This document shows positions 4,814 through 9,891 of a stretch of DNA of 64,000 nt, piece after piece (position 1 is the first letter of the stretch; every line of letters begins with the position of its first letter). The translations under genes and the position numbers were made by a program. The DNA is from an uncultured Acidobacteriota bacterium. Lineage in GTDB: Bacteria > Acidobacteriota > Thermoanaerobaculia > UBA5066. Under the pieces are notes generated by a model that saw only the letters and a list, made by a program, of their open reading frames with translations, was not told where the DNA came from and ran no database searches. The DNA lies in the NCBI GenBank assembly GCA_963779415.1, contig CAVZYA010000001.1, positions 800,001 to 864,000 on the forward strand, in the 5' to 3' direction.

Positions 4814-4888
4814 TGGAGCGGGTGATGGGGATCGAACCCACGACATTCAGCTTGGGAAGCTGACGTTCTGCCGCTGAACTACACCCGC
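4814..4888 (-). tRNA. tRNA-Gly (CCC)
   Basis: GCGGGTG/CACCCGC acceptor stem, TCAGC-TTCCCAA-GCTGA anticodon arm, GGTTCGATCC T-loop, encoded CCA; 75 nt. Confidence 0.97.
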
Positions 4889-4892
4889 TCGA

Positions 4893-5130
4893 ATGACTTA
4901 CGGTTCCGACGCCCCCGGCCACTGTTCGTACCGAGTTCGCGGCACCGCGCGAGAACGCTACCACAGCACGCTCAGACGCGCGAGCGTACCTATCCACGAG
5001 CCGCGTAGAAGCGTGACCGAGCATCGAGGCGAGAACGAACGGCGAAGCTCCCGCGTCAGCCCACGCGCTCCCCGCTGAGTGCCGAAGATCGTGGAAGCGG
5101 AAGCGACGCGTGATCTTCGCGCCCTCCTTA
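4893..5130 (-). pseudogene. Tyrosine integrase C-terminal remnant
   Basis: RFRFHDLRHSAGS...LASMLGHASTRLVDRYA = HxLRH, LGH and catalytic Tyr; N-terminal domains absent. Confidence 0.82.
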
Positions 5131-5471
5131 GTCACGGGGCGCGCGAGATTCGACCGGACGCCCCTCAGGAAACCGAAATAGACAAGCTCACCGATGAGCT
5201 TCGAGGCAAGTACGGCGGGAAATTCTCGTTCTCCGCGTGTATCCGTTATCTGCTCGATCTCAGGATCAGGACGCACCGCGCTGGTCGACGCGGCGTTGCG
5301 CCGGGTGCTGGGGCGAGTCCGGACTCCTCAGGGGCCGCGACGTCGATCTCGTTTCCCCTCCGAGCCGACTTCCTCGTTCCGGTCTCGTTACCTCGGGATC
5401 TGACGGTCGCGGAAGCAAAGCGGCTCGGGGCGTTTCTCTTGACGCTGGCGGCAGACTTCAAGGCGGAATAA
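5079..5471 (+). CDS. Hypothetical mobile-element protein, probably only the C-terminal part is genuine
   Basis: C-terminal FPLRADFLVPVSLPRDLTVAEAKRLGAFL looks protein-like; 5' part overlaps the integrase remnant. Confidence 0.35.
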   Translation: MPKIVEAEATRDLRALLSHGAREIRPDAPQETEIDKLTDELRGKYGGKFSFSACIRYLLDLRIRTHRAGRRGVAPGAGASPDSSGAATSISFPLRADFLVPVSLPRDLTVAEAKRLGAFLLTLAADFKAE

Positions 5472-5576
5472 GCGCCTCAGGCCTGGAACGGCGGTCCAGG
5501 CGCCCGGTCTCGTCCGCTGCGGCGCTGACGGCGCGCTGAACAGGCGCGCGGTGCTCCCCGTAAGGATGGAACTAGA

Positions 5577-5894
5577 TCAGAAGGGCACTCTTGATGCCGC
5601 GGCGCGCCTGAGAGCGGCTTTCGCCTTGAAGTAGGCCCAGACGTTCTGAACCGTGTAGACGGGCGTGAAAAGGGCTGAGCCGAGACTCCACCAACCGAAC
5701 AGGAGGTTGTTTGTCGTGAAGCTTCTAAAGTGGTGGCGTAAGCACGCATCGCATAGCAGGGCATCGAGGTGCTTCTCGTATCGGGCGATGAGAGCGCCCT
5801 TCGTCTGGCTCAGGGACACGAACACGGTCGGAACGCGCGCTCCGCACGACATGCAGGGCCGAAGATCCTCCGAGCTATCGACTGATGTAGACAT
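5577..5894 (-). CDS. Small hypothetical membrane protein with two CxxC pairs (cassette-like)
   Basis: 105 aa, CMSC and CDAC, hydrophobic C-terminal segment; lower GC; lies downstream of an attC-like site. Confidence 0.55.
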   Translation of the reverse strand: MSTSVDSSEDLRPCMSCGARVPTVFVSLSQTKGALIARYEKHLDALLCDACLRHHFRSFTTNNLLFGWWSLGSALFTPVYTVQNVWAYFKAKAALRRAAASRVPF

Positions 5895-5937
5895 AATCTT
5901 CCGGTTCTCTAGGACGATTTTTGCCTTTGCGCTTAGC

Positions 5938-5997
5938 GCGTGAGGATACCGCGTTCAGCGGCGAGCGGAGCGAGGCCGCGGCACGCGCGTGTCAGTC
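5938..5997 (-). repeat. Degenerate attC-like integron cassette recombination site
   Basis: Minus strand GACTGAC-ACGCG-CGTGCCGC-GGCCTCGCTCCGCTCGCC-GCTGAAC-GCGGTATC imperfect palindrome just after the Vgb stop; 25 bp (5950-5974) identical to 8617-8641; GTT of R' is lost. Confidence 0.6.
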
Positions 5998-6020
5998 CTC
6001 GGCCCGTTGCTGGTTCTCGT

Positions 6021-7109
6021 TCACCTTCCGTGAAGTAGCAGCCATCCGCATCCGCACAGAACTGCGGCGAGAACAAACAGAATCATGGGACTCAGGGCGG
6101 GTATCGGGGTAGCGGCGAGTGGGCCTCCGGATAGCCGCCCCAGTCGACTGGCCACCTCCGTGAACCAGATTGCGCCGTCTCGGCCCACGGTAATTCCCAC
6201 CGGTTCGGACTGTGGCTGAGGAAGGGCAAACGCCGTCAGACTGCCCGCCGTCGTGATGCGGCCGATCTCGTTCGCCCCTTCGTCTGTGAACCACATGGCC
6301 CCGTCCGGGCCTTGAACGATGTCGACAACGCCAGTTGACGCAGGATTCGTAAGCGGAAACTCGGACACTTGCCCACCGACGCCGACCCTCACGACGCTAT
6401 GCGCCTGACCGTAGTTGATCTGTGCACCGAGCCAGAGACTCCCGTCCGGGCCCGCAGCGATGCTGCCATTTGGTTCGGGAGGATTGGGAAGCTTGTAGGA
6501 CAGGAACCCACGGCCACCTGTGTCCAGTCGGCCAACCCCGTTCCCTGAGAACCAAAGCGCCCCATCAGGCCCAACGGTGATCGAATGCGGAAAGAAGCCA
6601 GAAGGAAGCGGATATTCAGTGACCGCGCCTGTCAGAGTCAGTCGACCAATTTGATTCGATAAAGGGTCCGTAAACCAAAGCGCACCGTCAGGCCCGAGAG
6701 TTAGGTCCGCTGCTATGGAGCCCGGAGGAAGAGGAAAGGTCGAGACTGCCCCTGTGGTCACCGAAACACGCACGATCGGGCCGGAGCTCCCGCACCACAT
6801 GCCGCCGTCCCGCGCATCCGCGCAGTGCCCCGGGGTCGCGCCGGGGAACCCTACGGGGGTTTGGAACATCGTCTCAACCCCAGCGGGCGTTATCCGACCC
6901 ATCAGCGACGTTCCCGCATACCACGTCCAGAAGTTGCCGTCTGACCCTACGGTGATCGGAATCGGATTGAATGACACCGGAAATTCCGTTATCTGAGCGG
7001 GCGTCTGCCCAACGACGGCGGCAGCCATAGGGAAAAGTAGACCTAGGACCGCGACCGAACGGGCGAGCCGGTGAGTTGGTTTGGCGCGGAGGTTGGGTCG
7101 CCTATTCAT
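6021..7109 (-). CDS. Secreted Vgb (virginiamycin B lyase)-like beta-propeller with IPTL-CTERM-like sorting tail
   Basis: Signal peptide; repeated (I/L)TxGPDGA(L/M)WFT...NxIGR blades; C-terminal IPALSP + TM helix + basic end. Confidence 0.85.
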   Translation of the reverse strand: MNRRPNLRAKPTHRLARSVAVLGLLFPMAAAVVGQTPAQITEFPVSFNPIPITVGSDGNFWTWYAGTSLMGRITPAGVETMFQTPVGFPGATPGHCADARDGGMWCGSSGPIVRVSVTTGAVSTFPLPPGSIAADLTLGPDGALWFTDPLSNQIGRLTLTGAVTEYPLPSGFFPHSITVGPDGALWFSGNGVGRLDTGGRGFLSYKLPNPPEPNGSIAAGPDGSLWLGAQINYGQAHSVVRVGVGGQVSEFPLTNPASTGVVDIVQGPDGAMWFTDEGANEIGRITTAGSLTAFALPQPQSEPVGITVGRDGAIWFTEVASRLGRLSGGPLAATPIPALSPMILFVLAAVLCGCGWLLLHGR

Positions 7110-7167
7110 CGTGTCACCCCGAAATCGAGTGTAAGCCTCGCCGGTATGCCCTACTCGCCCTTTCGAC

Positions 7168-7181
7168 TCCTAACGATATCG
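7168..7181 (-). repeat. R' half of an attC-like site, split from the rest of the site (8617-8648) by IS insertion
   Basis: Rejoined minus strand reads CGGACTCGCTCCGCTCGCCGCTGAACGCGATATC-GTTAGGA, paralleling the 5938-5997 site and ending in a GTTRRR core. Confidence 0.7.
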
Positions 7182-7297
7182 TTTCAATGAAGACGAAGAA
7201 AGGGCTGTCCTCGCCGACGTGGTCCCGATGAAATCGGGCCACAAGGACTGACGGGGTCAACCTCGAAGAGGTGCCCCAAGCAAGGGAGGACAGCCCG

Positions 7298-8407
7298 ATG
7301 AAAGCTTACGTGGGAGTGGACGTGCACAGCAAGTCGAGCGTATTCGTGATTCAGAACGAGCGGGGCGAGGAGCTGGGGCGGGGCGAAGTGCCGACGTCTG
7401 CGAAGGGATTCAGGGCGCTTCGAGAGCGGTTTCGGCTCGAGGCGTCCACGGCTGTGGCGCTCGAGTCGGGGACGATGGCGTTCTTCGCGGCGCGACAGCT
7501 GAGGGAGCTTGGACTGTCCCCTTTGGTGGTGGATGCGCGGGAAGTCCGGATGAAAGCGCACCGGCCAAAGCAGAAGAGCGACACGCGGGATGCCGGGGCG
7601 CTCTGCGCCGGCCTTCGCCAGGGGATTTACGAAGCCATCGTCCACGTGCCGCCGGAAAGGATCGAGCACCTGCGGAACACGCTCTCTCGCCGCCGGCACT
7701 TCGTGCGGCTGGCCACAGCTGAGATCAACGCAGCCAAGAAGATGCTTCGCAGCGCGGGACTGTCCGATCTGAGCCGGCAGACCCTGGGGACAGAGCACGC
7801 GTGGCGCCGCCTGCTGCGGGCACTTTTCGACCAACCTCAGGTCCGGAGCTTCGTCGAGCTGCACCGGCGGGCCTGGCAGAGCGCGATGGAGCAGAAGACC
7901 ACCTGCGAAAAGAGCCTCGGGGAGCAGCAGGCGCTCTTTCGGGAAGAGCTCGAGAGGCTCCGGACAGTGCCGGGCGTGGGTGAGATCGTCGCCCTGACGG
8001 CCATCGCGGTCTTCTCGGATGTCACACGATTTCCCAGCGCCAAGCACGCCGCCAGTTACGCGGGCCTCGTCCCCCAGACGTACCAGTCGGGCGAAACGAA
8101 CCGCCAGGGCCACATCACCCGGACCGGCTCGCCCGAGCTGCGCGCCATGCTCGTGCAGGCGGCTCACACGGCCCGAAGGCAAAGCAGCCCCCTGCACCCG
8201 TTCCTGAGAGATCTCAGCCTGCGTCTGGGCGCCCGGCGAGCCGTCATCGCCGTGGCGCACCGGCTCTGCCGGGTGCTGTACGCGATGCTGCGCGACAAGA
8301 CGGTCTTCGATGCCTCGAAGCTGAAAGCCCACGAGCCTTGCCCGCGCGTCGCCGGCGCACGGCTCTATCGGCTGAAACCTCAACCCAGGAGGACCGTGAT
8401 TCGCTAA
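7298..8407 (+). CDS. IS110-family DEDD transposase/recombinase
   Basis: YVGVDVH, ALESG, KSDTRDA (DEDD), LRTVPGVG, YAGLVP..YQSG (catalytic Ser), AVIAVAHRL; GGAGG RBS before ATG 7298. Confidence 0.95.
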   Translation: MKAYVGVDVHSKSSVFVIQNERGEELGRGEVPTSAKGFRALRERFRLEASTAVALESGTMAFFAARQLRELGLSPLVVDAREVRMKAHRPKQKSDTRDAGALCAGLRQGIYEAIVHVPPERIEHLRNTLSRRRHFVRLATAEINAAKKMLRSAGLSDLSRQTLGTEHAWRRLLRALFDQPQVRSFVELHRRAWQSAMEQKTTCEKSLGEQQALFREELERLRTVPGVGEIVALTAIAVFSDVTRFPSAKHAASYAGLVPQTYQSGETNRQGHITRTGSPELRAMLVQAAHTARRQSSPLHPFLRDLSLRLGARRAVIAVAHRLCRVLYAMLRDKTVFDASKLKAHEPCPRVAGARLYRLKPQPRRTVIR

Positions 8408-8429
8408 GAGGGCAAGAGCACGCCGCAAC

Positions 8430-8580
8430 TGTTGCCGAGAATCGGATGGATGACCCCGCTGCTGAACGCTGAGCGAAAGAGCTCGGGATATCGTCTGGGG
8501 CGCCATCCGCTGAAGTGATACGTGGGGCATTGACCCCGAATGGACGCGTGGCCGGCGGCTTCAAGCGGCAAGAAGACCCA
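8430..8580 (+). ncRNA. Predicted bridge RNA / seekRNA of the IS1111-type element (ends approximate)
   Basis: Two stem-internal loop-hairpin modules; loop strands GCTGAACGC (8461-8469) and GATATCG (8487-8493) match the target; TGATACG (8516-8522) and ATGGACG (8540-8546) match the donor junction with one mismatch each. Confidence 0.8.
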
Positions 8581-8645
8581 TCCAACGACGAGGCGCTTGA
8601 CAAGAATCTTCATGGGCGCGTTCAGCGGCGAGCGGAGCGAGTCCG

Positions 8646-9044
8646 CTACCAAGCGCCACTTGATCCTGATGCCTCGAACTCAACGACTTTCGTAAGGCGA
8701 AGGGTAACGCCCATCAGTTGGATGTTTCGAGCGCCGGGCGCCACGCGGAAGAGGCTACCGTGCGCTCCGGCAAGTTCACGATAGTAGCGTTCGACCTCCA
8801 AGCTGAACGCCTGATGATTGAACGGGCCGGGATAGGAGGCGAGGTCGGGAGGGCCAACCTCAAGCGGGTTGTCGGACTCGAACTTGGCGCCGACGATCTG
8901 TTTCACGTCGCAGTGAAGCCCCGTCAATTCGCGACCGTTCACTTCGAGAGTGAAGAACACGCGCGACACCATGTGCTCATCGTCGCTGGCGAATTCCTGT
9001 GAGTTCACTTCGCACTTCAAGAATGTGATGCGAATGGTGGGCAT
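8646..9044 (-). CDS. Hypothetical protein (cassette-like)
   Basis: 132-aa globular-looking ORF, GAGGAG RBS; its stop abuts the truncated attC-like site. Confidence 0.65.
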   Translation of the reverse strand: MPTIRITFLKCEVNSQEFASDDEHMVSRVFFTLEVNGRELTGLHCDVKQIVGAKFESDNPLEVGPPDLASYPGPFNHQAFSLEVERYYRELAGAHGSLFRVAPGARNIQLMGVTLRLTKVVEFEASGSSGAW

Positions 9045-9220
9045 CGCGCGCTCCTCTTCGGACGCCCCAGAGTACTGCGCCGAAGGCCGGGAGCGAAGCG
9101 CGCCGCTCTACTCGAAGGATGTCACGCGCGGCAGCTGGTCCGCGTCGTCGGCGAGTTCGCAGCGAGACGCGCAGCACGAACGCTCGACCCGTAAACCGTT
9201 GAGCGTGCAGTCCGTCGAGG

Positions 9221-9263
9221 GCTTGGGAAGCTGACGTTCTGCCGCTGAACTACACCCGCTCGA
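9221..9263 (-). repeat. 5' half of tRNA-Gly (nt -4 to 39), att-like copy left behind the native promoter
   Basis: 43 bp identical to 4850-4892, ending 2 nt past the anticodon loop. Confidence 0.92.
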
Positions 9264-9275
9264 GGGCGGAGGGCT

Positions 9276-9304
9276 GTTTTACCCGCGCCCGGGGGGCGCG
9301 TCAA
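9276..9304 (-). promoter_or_regulatory. sigma70-type promoter of the original tRNA-Gly gene
   Basis: TTGACG-17 bp-TAAAAC on minus strand, 16 nt upstream of the tRNA 5' fragment. Confidence 0.7.
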
Positions 9305-9891
9305 GGCTCGGGAGGCCCCGGAGCCTCTTCCCCGTGCCGCGCGATGCCGCGGGAGGACCGGAGGACGTAGTGGAGCCCCGATCCGACGGCGAGGGCGGCG
9401 ACGATCCCGAAGAAGGCCCGCGCGACCTGGGCCGGGAGCACTTCGACGTTCGCTAGGAGGATCGCGACGATCAGGCAGATCTCGGAAAAGGTCGTCAGCT
9501 TCCCGAGGACGGACGGCGGGAACTCCCGCGTACCGAGCGCGAGGTACATCACGAGCGAGACGACGAGGATCAGGACGTCCCGGAAAATCGTCAGGACGAG
9601 GAGCCAGATCGGGACGTGGACGACGGTCGGCGTCGCTCGAAGCGAGAAGACGACGAAGCTGGAGACGAGGAAGAGCTTGTCGGCGATCGGGTCGAGGTAG
9701 GCCCCGAGCGGCGAGCCCATGCCGAAATGCCGGGCGAGGTAGCCGTCCACGATGTCCGTGATCGCGGCGACGAGGAAGATGACGAGCGCCAGAGAGTGCC
9801 GCCCGTCGAGGATCGTCATGACGAGGAACGGGAGGGCGACGAGGCGGAGGAAGGTGAGGAGGTTCGGCAGGGTCCACGGGCGGAGCTCCAT
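9301..9891 (-). CDS. CDP-alcohol phosphatidyltransferase (PgsA/cardiolipin synthase-like)
   Basis: TLPNLLTFLR, DIVDGYLAR...GAYLDPIADK signature. Confidence 0.9.
   Translation of the reverse strand: MELRPWTLPNLLTFLRLVALPFLVMTILDGRHSLALVIFLVAAITDIVDGYLARHFGMGSPLGAYLDPIADKLFLVSSFVVFSLRATPTVVHVPIWLLVLTIFRDVLILVVSLVMYLALGTREFPPSVLGKLTTFSEICLIVAILLANVEVLPAQVARAFFGIVAALAVGSGLHYVLRSSRGIARHGEEAPGPPEP

What the first reader, a model, noticed from the sequence alone, without database searches (positions are those of the whole stretch)
7168..8648. attC-targeting IS1111-type recombinase with a fully readable two-loop bridge RNA
Seen: reconstructed target GATAT-CG-CGTTCAGC and donor junction CATGGG-CG-TTTCAAT. 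The 3' non-coding end holds two modules. Module 1 has outer stem GGATGG..CCCC/GGGG..CCATCC and inner GAGC/GCTC hairpin, with loop strands GCTGAACGC (8461-8469, reverse complement of the right target) and GATATCG (8487-8493, left target plus core). Module 2 has outer stem CCGCTGAAG/CTTCAAGCGG and inner GGGG/CCCC hairpin, with TGATACG (8516-8522, versus TGAAACG) and ATGGACG (8540-8546, versus ATGGGCG). Established: IS110/IS1111 recombinases use such guide RNAs, and some IS1111 members target attC. Inference: this is an intact, compact (369 aa) RNA-guided recombinase with a CG core and short 7-bp IRs, programmed against this lineage's attC family. It is a candidate new programmable tool. The sibling site at 5945-5958 (GATAC-CG-CGTTCAGC, one mismatch) is a predicted unused target.
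Basis: partly seen in the sequence, partly recalled or inferred. Interest (0 to 1): 0.85.

Follow-up and report, generated by a model that had tools for sequence, protein, structure and literature searches.

The report
RNA-guided insertion sequence inside an integron attC site
This is an intact jumping gene of the IS1111 type that carries its own guide RNA aimed at the recombination sites of integron gene cassettes; it is a clear new member of an already known kind.

Summary
A 1,437-bp IS1111-type element (7182-8616 plus one CG core) lies inside an attC-like repeat. It encodes a 369-aa IS110-family recombinase (7298-8407) and a 209-nt 3' non-coding end.

The strongest support is comparative. 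A covariance model of the RNA hits 85 of 91 sources. Its helices covary (96.8% paired against 87.5% in shuffles, 0 of 500 reaching it). The loop strands change together with the flanks: 23 of 40 cognate pairs pass an exact joint test, against 5 of 1,438 non-cognate pairs. In the 80-86% clade, five right-guide and two left-guide variants track attC variants.

The genome holds an integron integrase next to an array of the same repeat, and four vacant exact copies of the 15-mer target.

Corrections:
- The two "mismatches" in module 2 are conserved across the family, not decay.
- The outer stem of module 2 is supported only in the close clade.
- 369 aa is not compact; the solved IS621 and ISCro4 chains are shorter.

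attC-targeting IS1111 elements and their seekRNAs are published, so this is a new member of a known kind.

The parts
7168..7181 (+). Left half of the split attC: R-box TCCTAAC (7168-7174), left target GATAT (7175-7179), core CG (7180-7181)
   Evidence: sequence. The same ...YTAAC GATAY CG left flank is present at 11 of 11 left junctions of close relatives.
7182..7297 (+). Left end (LE, 116 nt). RD TTTCA is at 7182-7186 and the subterminal IR ATGAAGA at 7187-7193. A 9-bp inverted repeat GGGCTGTCC (7203-7211) / GGACAGCCC (7288-7296) overlaps the GGGAGG ribosome-binding site.
   Evidence: The end architecture (core + 5 nt + ATGAAGAC) is shared by the family.
7298..8407 (+). IS110-family DEDD/Ser recombinase gene, 369 aa, intact
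   Evidence: PF01548 (E 4.7e-15) and PF02371 (E 3.1e-24). NF033542 scores 225 bits against a cut-off of 140. The AlphaFold model has pLDDT 81.6. The best PDB folds are IS621 8WT9/8WT6, E 4.5e-14, TM 0.62/0.72. D95/D98 and S264 align with IS621 D102/D105 and S241.
8408..8616 (+). Right end (RE, 209 nt), holding the bridge/seek RNA and the RE terminus
   Evidence: The longer non-coding region lies downstream of tnp, as in IS1111 elements (PMC11187229 abstract; PMC11208160 passage).
8444..8508 (+). Module 1, the target-binding loop. P1 GGATGG/CCATCC; P2 CCCCG (8454-8458) / TGGGG (8496-8500); right-target guide GCTGAACGC (8461-8469); inner hairpin GAGC (8471-8474) / GCTC (8481-8484); left-target guide plus core GATATCG (8487-8493); 2-nt extension TC (8494-8495).
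   Evidence: Helices P1-P3 covary. The guide strands covary with the flanks.
8509..8568 (+). Module 2, the donor-binding loop. 5' strand TGATACG (8516-8522); invariant hairpin TGGGG (8523-8527) / CCCCG (8534-8538); 3' strand ATGGACG (8540-8546) plus extension CG (8547-8548); possible closing stem CCGCTGAAG (8507-8515) / CTTCAAGCGG (8559-8568).
   Evidence: The 3' strand covaries with the RE end, the core and the first base of the target. The 5' strand covaries in part with the LE. The closing stem is recovered only in the close clade.
8597..8616 (+). RE terminus: TTGACA (8597-8602), subterminal IR TCTTCAT (8607-8613), GGG (8614-8616). Joined to the LE in a circle it would read TTGACA-17 nt-TTCAAT.
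   Evidence: The TTGAC...TCTTCATGGG motif is conserved in relatives. The junction-promoter reading is an inference. No sigma-70-like site was found in the linear form.
8617..8678 (+). Right half of the split attC: core CG (8617-8618), right target CGTTCAGC (8619-8626), and the rest of the repeat
   Evidence: nhmmer hit at 808617-808678, E 4e-10. The 25-mer is identical to the one at 5950-5974.
5932..6007 (+). Neighbouring intact attC-like repeat with the one-mismatch site GATAC-CG-CGTTCAGC (5945-5959)
   Evidence: nhmmer E 8.5e-13.

Best explanation
This is an intact IS1111-subgroup insertion sequence of the IS110 family, inserted in the attC site of a gene cassette.

Its 369-aa DEDD/Ser recombinase is proposed to work with an RNA made from the 3' non-coding end.
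- Module 1 (8444-8508) reads the target. GCUGAACGC pairs with the top strand of the right target plus the second core base. GAUAUCG pairs with the bottom strand of the left target plus the core.
- Module 2 (8509-8568) reads the joined ends of the excised circle. UGAUACG reads core plus LE, and AUGGACG reads RE plus core.
- A 2-nt extension of the donor strand (CG) matches the first two bases of the target. This resembles a handshake guide.
- Recombination at the CG core places the element between GATAT-CG and CGTTCAGC. The site is 8-9 nt from the attC R' box, and the IS is antisense to the cassette genes. The insertion splits the attC.

Shown here: the protein family and fold, the end architecture, the covarying RNA helices, and guide-flank covariation across relatives. 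Inferred: that the RNA is made and bound, that a circle forms, that a junction promoter arises, and that this copy is active.
For: Protein
- PF01548 and PF02371.
- NF033542 'IS110 family RNA-guided transposase', 225 bits against a cut-off of 140.
- The fold matches IS621 and ISCro4 over about 346 of 369 columns, E 4.5e-14.
- D95/D98/S264 align with the IS621 catalytic residues.

Architecture
- RE 209 nt against LE 116 nt, 7-bp subterminal IRs, and only the CG core repeated.
- The guide order (top-strand match 5' of bottom-strand match) is as described for IS1111 seekRNAs.

RNA
- Model R1 hits 85 of 91 sources, always downstream of tnp.
- In 72 distinct sequences, 96.8% of cells pair against 87.5% in shuffles (0 of 500). 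Twelve pairs show double changes, and slid controls reach at most 53.5%. The independent MAFFT/RNAalifold alignment gives similar numbers.

Guides
- 23 of 40 loci with both flanks pass the exact joint test, against 5 of 1,438 non-cognate pairs.
- With structure-anchored extraction, the RTG best 9-mer scores at least 8 in 19 of 50 cognate pairs against 33 of 2,412 non-cognate. The LTG scores at least 7 of 9 in 20 of 35 against 37 of 1,160.
- Close clade (with for the right junction of L020): five RTG and two LTG variants. RTG matches RT perfectly at 7 of 10 right junctions. LTG matches perfectly at 8 of 8.
- The donor-strand extension equals the RT bases specified by the RTG in 11 of 11 RNAs.
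- The donor strand tracks RE-3 (95% against 67%), core base 1 (85% against 55%) and RT+1 (88% against 56%).

Target
- The repeat forms arrays, one of them beside an integrase scoring 468.8 bits on TIGR02249 against a cut-off of 265.
- There are 4 vacant exact 15-mers.

Mobility in relatives
- Two copies in one MAG are 99.6% identical and sit at different attCs.
Against:
- No promoter-like site lies inside the linear element.
- The single-sequence fold is no more stable than shuffles.
- The element is single-copy in its genome although 4 perfect vacant targets exist, so this copy may be quiet.
- 17 of 40 loci fail the exact joint guide test. Some have one or two mismatches and some have flanks that do not fit their guides at all, for example L036.
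- The closing stem of module 2 is not conserved family-wide.
- The 5' donor strand never pairs at RD position 2.
- Both attC copies in the window have degenerate outer boxes.
Confidence: 0.85

Rival explanations
1. The element is a genuine IS1111-type IS with a readable guide RNA, but this particular copy is dormant or immobile in this genome. It would be a single old insertion that no longer moves.
For: - There is one copy of both the IS and the RNA in a 4.36-Mb, 3-contig genome, although 4 exact and 3 one-mismatch targets are vacant.
- It is the most divergent member of its clade, at 80-84.5% DNA identity.
- The TBL extension is TC rather than the TT seen in 7 of the other 10 RNAs of the clade.
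- No promoter-like site was found.
Against: - The ORF is intact with the catalytic residues kept.
- Both ends, the subterminal IRs and all four guide strands are intact and match this copy's own junctions.
- A single copy is common for IS1111 members according to the seekRNA paper's survey (one or two locations for 110 IS).
- MAG assemblies can collapse repeats.
Confidence: 0.25
2. The repeat that is hit is not an integron attC. It would be another palindromic repeat family (REP-like), so 'attC-targeting' would be a misnomer.
For: - The two copies in the window lie in a small tRNA-Gly-bounded island with no integron integrase nearby.
- Their outer boxes are degenerate.
- Several 53-63% relatives do target short REP-like palindromes.
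- No attC covariance model was available.
Against: - Family members carry RYYYAAC...GTTRRRY boxes around a 60-85-nt imperfect palindrome with bulged bases.
- They occur in arrays spaced by single ORFs.
- One array of 4-6 copies starts about 600 bp from an integrase that passes the integron-integrase cut-off.
- Clusters of attC sites without an integrase are a known state. This last point is recalled, not tested.
Confidence: 0.07
3. The guide-like matches are incidental, and the recombinase finds the site by protein-DNA contacts or by the folded hairpin alone.
For: - The matches are short (5+2 and 8+1 nt).
- The target is a structured repeat.
- A 2026 preprint reports that a target stem-loop adds specificity for ISPpu10 (abstract only).
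Against: - Guide strands change together with flanks in many lineages with unrelated targets, while the helices around them are kept by compensatory changes.
- RNA dependence has been shown experimentally for other IS1111 members (abstract; section 9).
Confidence: 0.03

Closest known systems
IS1111-attC group (ISPa21, ISPst6, ISKpn4, ISPa25)
   Same: - IS1111-type elements that insert at one fixed position of integron attC sites, antisense to cassette transcription (PMC3001079 passage).
- ISKpn4 and ISPst6 make a seekRNA from the region downstream of tnp, and it carries matches to both target strands (PMC11187229).
   Different: - The recombinase here is at most about 32% identical to anything encoded in 72,556 plasmid records (the 25 best-ranked rows are 28.6-32.4%, and all 5,000 counted records are under 60%). 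I did not verify that the named IS are among those records.
- The target is a different attC family.
- The insertion lies next to the R' (3') end of the attC relative to the cassette genes. The cited passage places the known group near the 5' end.
- The nearest copies found are in environmental MAGs labelled Acidobacteriota or Thermoanaerobaculia, not in clinical class 1 integrons.
- The two primary papers (Tetu & Holmes 2008; Post & Hall 2009) were not held.
ISEc11 / ISPa11 (IS1111 family, seekRNA shown experimentally)
   Same: - The long non-coding region lies downstream of tnp.
- Subterminal IRs are present.
- The top-strand match lies 5' of the bottom-strand match in the RNA.
- Relatives of the window's element also hit REP-like palindromes, as ISPa11 does.
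   Different: - Different targets.
- No experimental data exist for this family.
IS621 and ISCro4 bridge recombinases (IS110 subgroup; PDB 8WT6-8WT9, 9T56)
   Same: - Same fold.
- Same catalytic motifs, KxDxxDA and YxSG.
- A two-loop RNA with target and donor loops, and guide extensions that match the non-cognate partner (handshake idea).
   Different: - 18-19% identity.
- The RNA is at the 3' end, not the 5' end.
- The order of the guide strands is reversed.
- The handshake-like extension sits on the bottom-strand-binding guides here.
- The core is CG, not CT.
- 369 aa against 328 and 341 aa for the solved chains.
ISPpu9 / ISPpu10 (IS1111-type, REP-targeting, Pseudomonas putida)
   Same: - They target structured repeats.
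- The RNA gene lies downstream of tnp (abstracts).
   Different: - ISPpu9 has orphan RNA copies elsewhere in its genome. Here the model finds only one RNA copy.

Membership tests
IS110 family recombinase | DEDD (RuvC-like) N-terminal domain plus Transposase_20 C-terminal domain | tested here: met
   PF01548 at E 4.7e-15 and PF02371 at E 3.1e-24, both above their cut-offs. NF033542 scores 225.3 bits against a cut-off of 140.
IS110 family recombinase | Fold of a solved bridge recombinase | tested here: met
   The model has pLDDT 81.6 and pTM 0.73. Foldseek ranks 1-10 are IS621 and ISCro4 chains, E 4.5e-14 to 1e-12, TMq 0.60-0.63.
IS110 family recombinase | Catalytic D, E, D, D and Ser (IS621 D11, E60, D102, D105, S241; PMC11208158 passage) | tested here: inconclusive
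   D95/D98 align with the KTDTVDA motif and S264 with YESGS of the IS621 chain, assuming a 2-residue offset in chain numbering. The D95/D98 stretch is a weak, non-significant alignment. D8 and E56 are assigned only by position and by near-invariance in 26 homologues.
IS1111 subgroup | Longer non-coding region downstream of the transposase gene | tested here: met
   RE 209 nt (8408-8616) against LE 116 nt (7182-7297). The criterion comes from the PMC11187229 abstract and a PMC11208160 passage.
IS1111 subgroup | Subterminal inverted repeats (7-17 bp per PMC11208160) | tested here: met
   ATGAAGA lies 5 nt inside the LE and TCTTCAT lies 3 nt inside the RE. The repeats are longer (8-11 bp) in relatives.
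IS1111 subgroup | Guide order: the match to the top strand lies 5' of the match to the bottom strand | tested here: met
   8461-8469 is the reverse complement of the right target and lies 5' of 8487-8493, which has the sense of the left target.
Bridge RNA / seekRNA | Conserved secondary structure with internal loops, shown by covariation | tested here: met
   P1, P2 and P3 show compensatory changes. The P5 hairpin is invariant, so it says nothing either way. The module-2 closing stem is not supported family-wide.
Bridge RNA / seekRNA | Loop strands covary with target and donor sequences | tested here: met
   Target loop. Donor loop 3' strand. Donor loop 5' strand: covaries only in part and has a constant non-pairing position.
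Bridge RNA / seekRNA | The RNA is transcribed and bound by the recombinase | not testable with these tools
No Rfam family matches the region.
IS1111-attC group | Inserted in an attC site, antisense to the cassette genes | tested here: met
   tnp is on the + strand and the cassette ORFs are on the - strand (Vgb_lyase-family protein, E 1.4e-63). The repeat family is judged attC-like.
IS1111-attC group | Monophyletic with ISPa21/ISPst6 (PMC3001079 passage citing Tetu & Holmes) | not tested
   No sequence of those IS was available to me. Identity of about 32% or less to plasmid-encoded relatives suggests a separate lineage but is not a tree.
IS1111-attC group | Insertion near the 5' end of the attC | tested here: not met
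   The insertion is 8-9 nt from the box that lies at the 3' (R') end with respect to the cassette ORFs. The criterion rests on one secondary passage.
Integron attC site | Imperfect palindrome bounded by RYYYAAC and GTTRRRY, with bulged bases, in arrays next to single ORFs, associated with IntI | tested here: met
   Boxes. Folds with bulges in the 3' arm of the + strand. Arrays. Cassette ORFs with Pfam hits. IntI above cut-off. The two copies in the window have degenerate outer boxes and no IntI nearby. No attC covariance model was available.

The most novel reading that the evidence does not exclude
attC targeting arose here independently of the clinical IS1111-attC group, inside a family whose other members aim at REP-like palindromes.

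Three observations fit this reading.
- The guides drift in step with attC sequence variants: five right-guide variants occur in one clade.
- The handshake-like extensions sit on the bottom-strand-binding guides, and the first donor guide keeps one fixed non-pairing position. This would mean a strand-exchange order mirrored with respect to IS621.
- A second IS1111-type element, 26% identical, splits the same attC family at its centre in the same genome. That suggests attC arrays are a shared niche divided among RNA-guided IS.
Probability: 0.35. Interest if true: 0.55.

Novelty: new member of a known kind. Interest (0 to 1): 0.4.

Why it matters
The case shows natural reprogramming of an RNA-guided recombinase at single-base resolution. 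Sibling elements differ at one or two guide bases and sit in sites that differ at the matching bases.

It extends attC-targeting IS from clinical class 1 integrons to chromosomal cassette arrays of environmental bacteria. An insertion between the R' and L' boxes should immobilise the cassette.

Three family-wide regularities give testable hints on how IS1111-type bridge RNAs differ from IS621:
- a donor strand that reads the RE end, the core and the first target base;
- a fixed non-pairing base at RD position 2;
- an invariant TGGGG/CCCCG hairpin.

As a tool candidate it is one of many, and it is larger than the enzymes already in use.

Tried and rejected
- Rfam scan of 5500-9500. The only match is a chance one (RSV_PBS, 23.6 bits against a gathering score of 47), so no described RNA family covers the region.
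- Folding energy as evidence. Rejected, because it is not better than shuffles.
- Sigma-70 scan. No site inside the IS, so the RNA's promoter remains unknown.
- Phylum-wide protein search. Only 4 of 401 genomes matched at E<=1e-60, own genome included, so it was of little use. The metagenome scan gave the relatives instead.
- Search for orphan RNA copies. None found.
- attC polarity. A hand pairing first put the bulged bases on the 5' arm of the + strand, which clashed with the cassette genes being on the - strand. The computed folds put the bulges in the 3' arm of the + strand. The + strand is therefore bottom-strand-like and the clash disappears. The rule that canonical attC bulges lie in the 3' arm of the bottom strand is recalled, not checked.
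- Direct comparison with ISPst6, ISKpn4 or ISPa21. The accession was not in the collections and the primary paper was not held, so it could not be done.
- Closing stem of module 2 family-wide. Not recovered. In distant relatives RNAalifold proposes a pairing that competes with P1, which I do not trust.
- Six of the 91 sources have no RNA hit. L107 is the integron locus, not a homologue. In L077 the contig ends 98 nt after tnp. In L030, L063 and L090 the RNA region is interrupted after its first part. L025 comes from an unpublished genome and was not inspected.
- Supplements were closed. Supplementary Figs 5-7 of PMC11187229 (the ISKpn4, ISPst6 and ISPa25 seekRNAs) and Supplementary Table 5 of PMC11208160 may bear on how close the known attC-targeting RNAs are to this one.
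- ISfinder could not be searched, so I cannot say whether the element already has a name.
- Literature searches for attC-targeting bridge RNAs.
Full report
**What is in the sequence.**
- The element runs from 7182 (TTTCAATGAAGACG...) to 8616 (...TCTTCATGGG). A CG dinucleotide sits at both junctions, at 7180-7181 and 8617-8618.
- With one core copy the element is 1,437 bp.
- It holds one intact ORF, 7298-8407, of 369 aa.
- The left end is 116 nt and the right end is 209 nt.
- The 7-bp inverted repeats ATGAAGA (7187-7193) and TCTTCAT (8607-8613) are subterminal. They lie 5 and 3 nt from the tips.
The stems of module 1 are the minimum-free-energy fold.
- Folding energy is no better than for shuffled sequence (z +0.94 and -0.36), so it carries no weight.
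- No Rfam family matches the region.

**The protein.**
- It has the two Pfam domains of IS110-family transposases.
- It passes NCBIfam's 'IS110 family RNA-guided transposase' model, 225 bits against a cut-off of 140.
- A model built on 26 homologues has pLDDT 81.6. Its best structural matches are the ten top-ranked chains of the IS621 and ISCro4 synaptic complexes, E 4.5e-14 to 1e-12, over about 346 columns.
- A profile search aligns KSDTRDA (D95, D98) and QTYQSGE (S264) with the IS621 motifs. Allowing a two-residue offset in the deposited chain, these motifs hold D102, D105 and S241 (residue roles from a passage of PMC11208158).
- The aspartate alignment is weak. D8 and E56 are assigned by position only.

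**The target.**
- The right flank CGCGTTCAGCGGCGAGCGGAGCGAG recurs 2.7 kb to the left. It belongs to a repeat family of the genome.
- Complete members read RYYYAAC - GATATCG - CGTTCAGCGGCGAG ... CCGCTGCAACG - GTTAGRC and are 60-85 nt long.
- They fold with the outer boxes paired and with bulged bases in the 3' arm of the strand shown.
- They stand in arrays separated by single ORFs.
- One array of four to six copies begins about 600 bp from a gene that scores 468.8 bits on the integron-integrase model, cut-off 265.
- The cassette ORFs of that array have Pfam hits: RibD_C, DinB, DUF1801, GNAT and hemerythrin. They lie on the strand opposite to the one shown and run in the same direction as intI.
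- I therefore accept the repeats as attC sites. The window's + strand is the bottom strand.
- The window's own two copies have worn outer boxes and no integrase nearby.
- The reconstructed 15-mer GATATCGCGTTCAGC is found intact four times elsewhere in the genome, all in one attC array. It is found three more times with one mismatch. The reversed-genome control gives none.

**Relatives.**
- The recombinase has hundreds of metagenomic homologues.
- I fetched 6 loci from MAGs labelled Acidobacteriota or Thermoanaerobaculia, at 80-86% identity. I also fetched 80 metagenome contigs at 53-84% identity.
- All share the end plan: core + 5 nt + ATGAAGAC... at the left, and TTGAC...GTCTTCATGGG + core at the right.
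- A covariance model built from 22 RNA regions hits 85 of 91 sources, always just downstream of the transposase gene. The six misses are explained, or are not homologues.
- On 72 distinct sequences, 96.8% of cells pair against 87.5% in shuffles (0 of 500 reach it). Twelve pairs show changes on both sides, and slid controls stay at or below 53.5%.
- That alignment is fitted to the model. The independent MAFFT/RNAalifold alignment of 21 sequences gives 96.6% against 87.0%, with ten such pairs.
- P1, P2 and the inner hairpin of module 1 are thus supported. The TGGGG/CCCCG hairpin of module 2 never varies.

**Guides follow flanks.**
- Among 40 loci with both flanks, 23 have an exact right-guide plus left-guide match of at least 8 summed bases at the window's spacing. 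Only 5 of 1,438 non-cognate pairings do.
- When guides are extracted by structural anchors instead of by matching, the right guide's best 9-mer scores at least 8 in 19 of 50 cognate cases, against 33 of 2,412 non-cognate. The left guide scores at least 7 of 9 in 20 of 35, against 37 of 1,160.
- In the close clade, 11 RNAs carry five right-guide variants and two left-guide variants.
  - The window and L017 have GCTGAACGC/GATATCG, in GATAT-CG-CGTTCAGC.
  - L018 and L022 have GCTGAGCGC/GATACCG, in GATAC-CG-CGCTCAGC.
  - L019 and L020 have GCTGAACTC, in ...CG-AGTTCAGC.
  - L027 has GCTGAGCTT, in ...CA-AGCTCAGC.
- Right guide and right flank agree fully at 7 of 10 junctions (the right junction of L020 was read). 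Two copies in L021 have one mismatch and L031 has two.
- The left guide agrees at 8 of 8.
- All 11 left junctions read ...AACGATAYCG.
- Two copies in one MAG are 99.6% identical at different attCs, so the guides travel with the element.

**Donor loop.**
- The 3' strand (A)ATGGACG tracks the RE tip and the core. Its agreement with RE-3 is 95% against 67% non-cognate, with core base 1 it is 85% against 55%, and with the first base of the target it is 88% against 56% (40 distinct cases).
- In the close clade the two bases after the core (CG or AG) equal the first two target bases encoded by the right guide, in 11 of 11 RNAs.
- This resembles the handshake guides of IS621. Here, however, it lies on the strand that has the sense of the top strand.
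- The 5' strand TGATACG is the reverse complement of CG+TATCA. That is the LE start of the distant relatives, whereas the close clade has TTTCA. The distant relatives carry CGAAAC-type guides against TATCA.
- In both groups the second base of the LE is left unpaired.

**Comparison with what is known.**
- IS1111 elements with a guide RNA in the right end are described in the PMC11187229 abstract and sections 9 and 13, and in PMC11208160 passages.
- IS1111 members that hit attC sites are described too. ISKpn4 and ISPst6 were shown to make a seekRNA.
- A passage of PMC3001079 says the known attC group sits near the 5' end of attC, antisense to the cassettes.
- The window's element is also antisense, but it sits next to the R' (3') box.
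- Its recombinase is about 30% identical to the best plasmid-encoded relatives.
- Its 53-63% relatives mostly hit short REP-like palindromes.
- This points to a separate origin of attC targeting. I could not build the tree that would show it.

**Limits.**
- Expression, RNA binding, circle formation and activity were not tested.
- The element is single-copy despite vacant perfect targets.
- No promoter-like site was found. The TTGACA-17-TTCAAT junction promoter is an inference.

**Verdict.**
- It is a new member of a known kind.

Noticed in passing
window 4814-4892 and 9221-9263: A perfect 43-nt direct repeat (4850-4892 and 9221-9263) covers the 5' part of tRNA-Gly(CCC), which lies at 4814-4888 on the - strand. 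The repeats bound a 4.37-kb island. The island holds an integrase remnant (about 4890-5276 on the - strand, with only the C-terminal part of PF00589), three small ORFs on the - strand, the two attC repeats and the IS.
   Followed up: partly
L107 7169-8727 (G000:C2:1589169-1590727): A second, different IS110-family element lies in the centre of an attC of the integron array. Its junctions read ...GCGAAGCG-AG|ATGGAATGAGAAGGCC ... GGCCTTCTCATGGA|AG-TCCGCTGCAGCGCGGGGTTAGGC. It has 11-bp subterminal IRs, TTGACA before the right tip, and sequences in the right end that match its own junctions (AGCGGACT and GCGAGATGG). Its transposase is 26% identical to the window's. Its reading frame runs on past the element's end without a stop.
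   Followed up: partly
L107 9254-10887 (G000:C2): The integron integrase is transcribed in the same direction as the cassette ORFs, and the array lies downstream of its 3' end. An IS3-type transposase (rve domains, L107 5545-6384 on the - strand) also sits in the array.
   Followed up: partly
window 7203-7211 and 7288-7296: A perfect 9-bp inverted repeat, GGGCTGTCC / GGACAGCCC, joins the start of the left end to the GGGAGG ribosome-binding site just before the ATG. It is kept in the close relatives. It could hide the ribosome-binding site in read-through transcripts.
   Followed up: no
window 6021-7109 (-): The cassette between the two attC copies encodes a 362-aa Vgb_lyase-family beta-propeller protein (Pfam E 1.4e-63). 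It scores far below NCBIfam's cut-offs for streptogramin B lyases (139 bits against 600), so it should not be called a resistance gene.
   Followed up: partly
L027 2802-2830; L036; L098: - L027's right junction has core CA while its left junction has CG. Its right guide matches the CA form.
- L036's left flank fits the guide of another element (L061), not its own. This suggests a rearrangement between copies.
- L098's palindromic target recurs intact about 60 nt downstream.
   Followed up: no
L021 448-574 and 4141-4267; L085 385-513: Some contigs carry two copies of the RNA 1.5-3.7 kb apart, which means elements in neighbouring repeats of one array.
   Followed up: no
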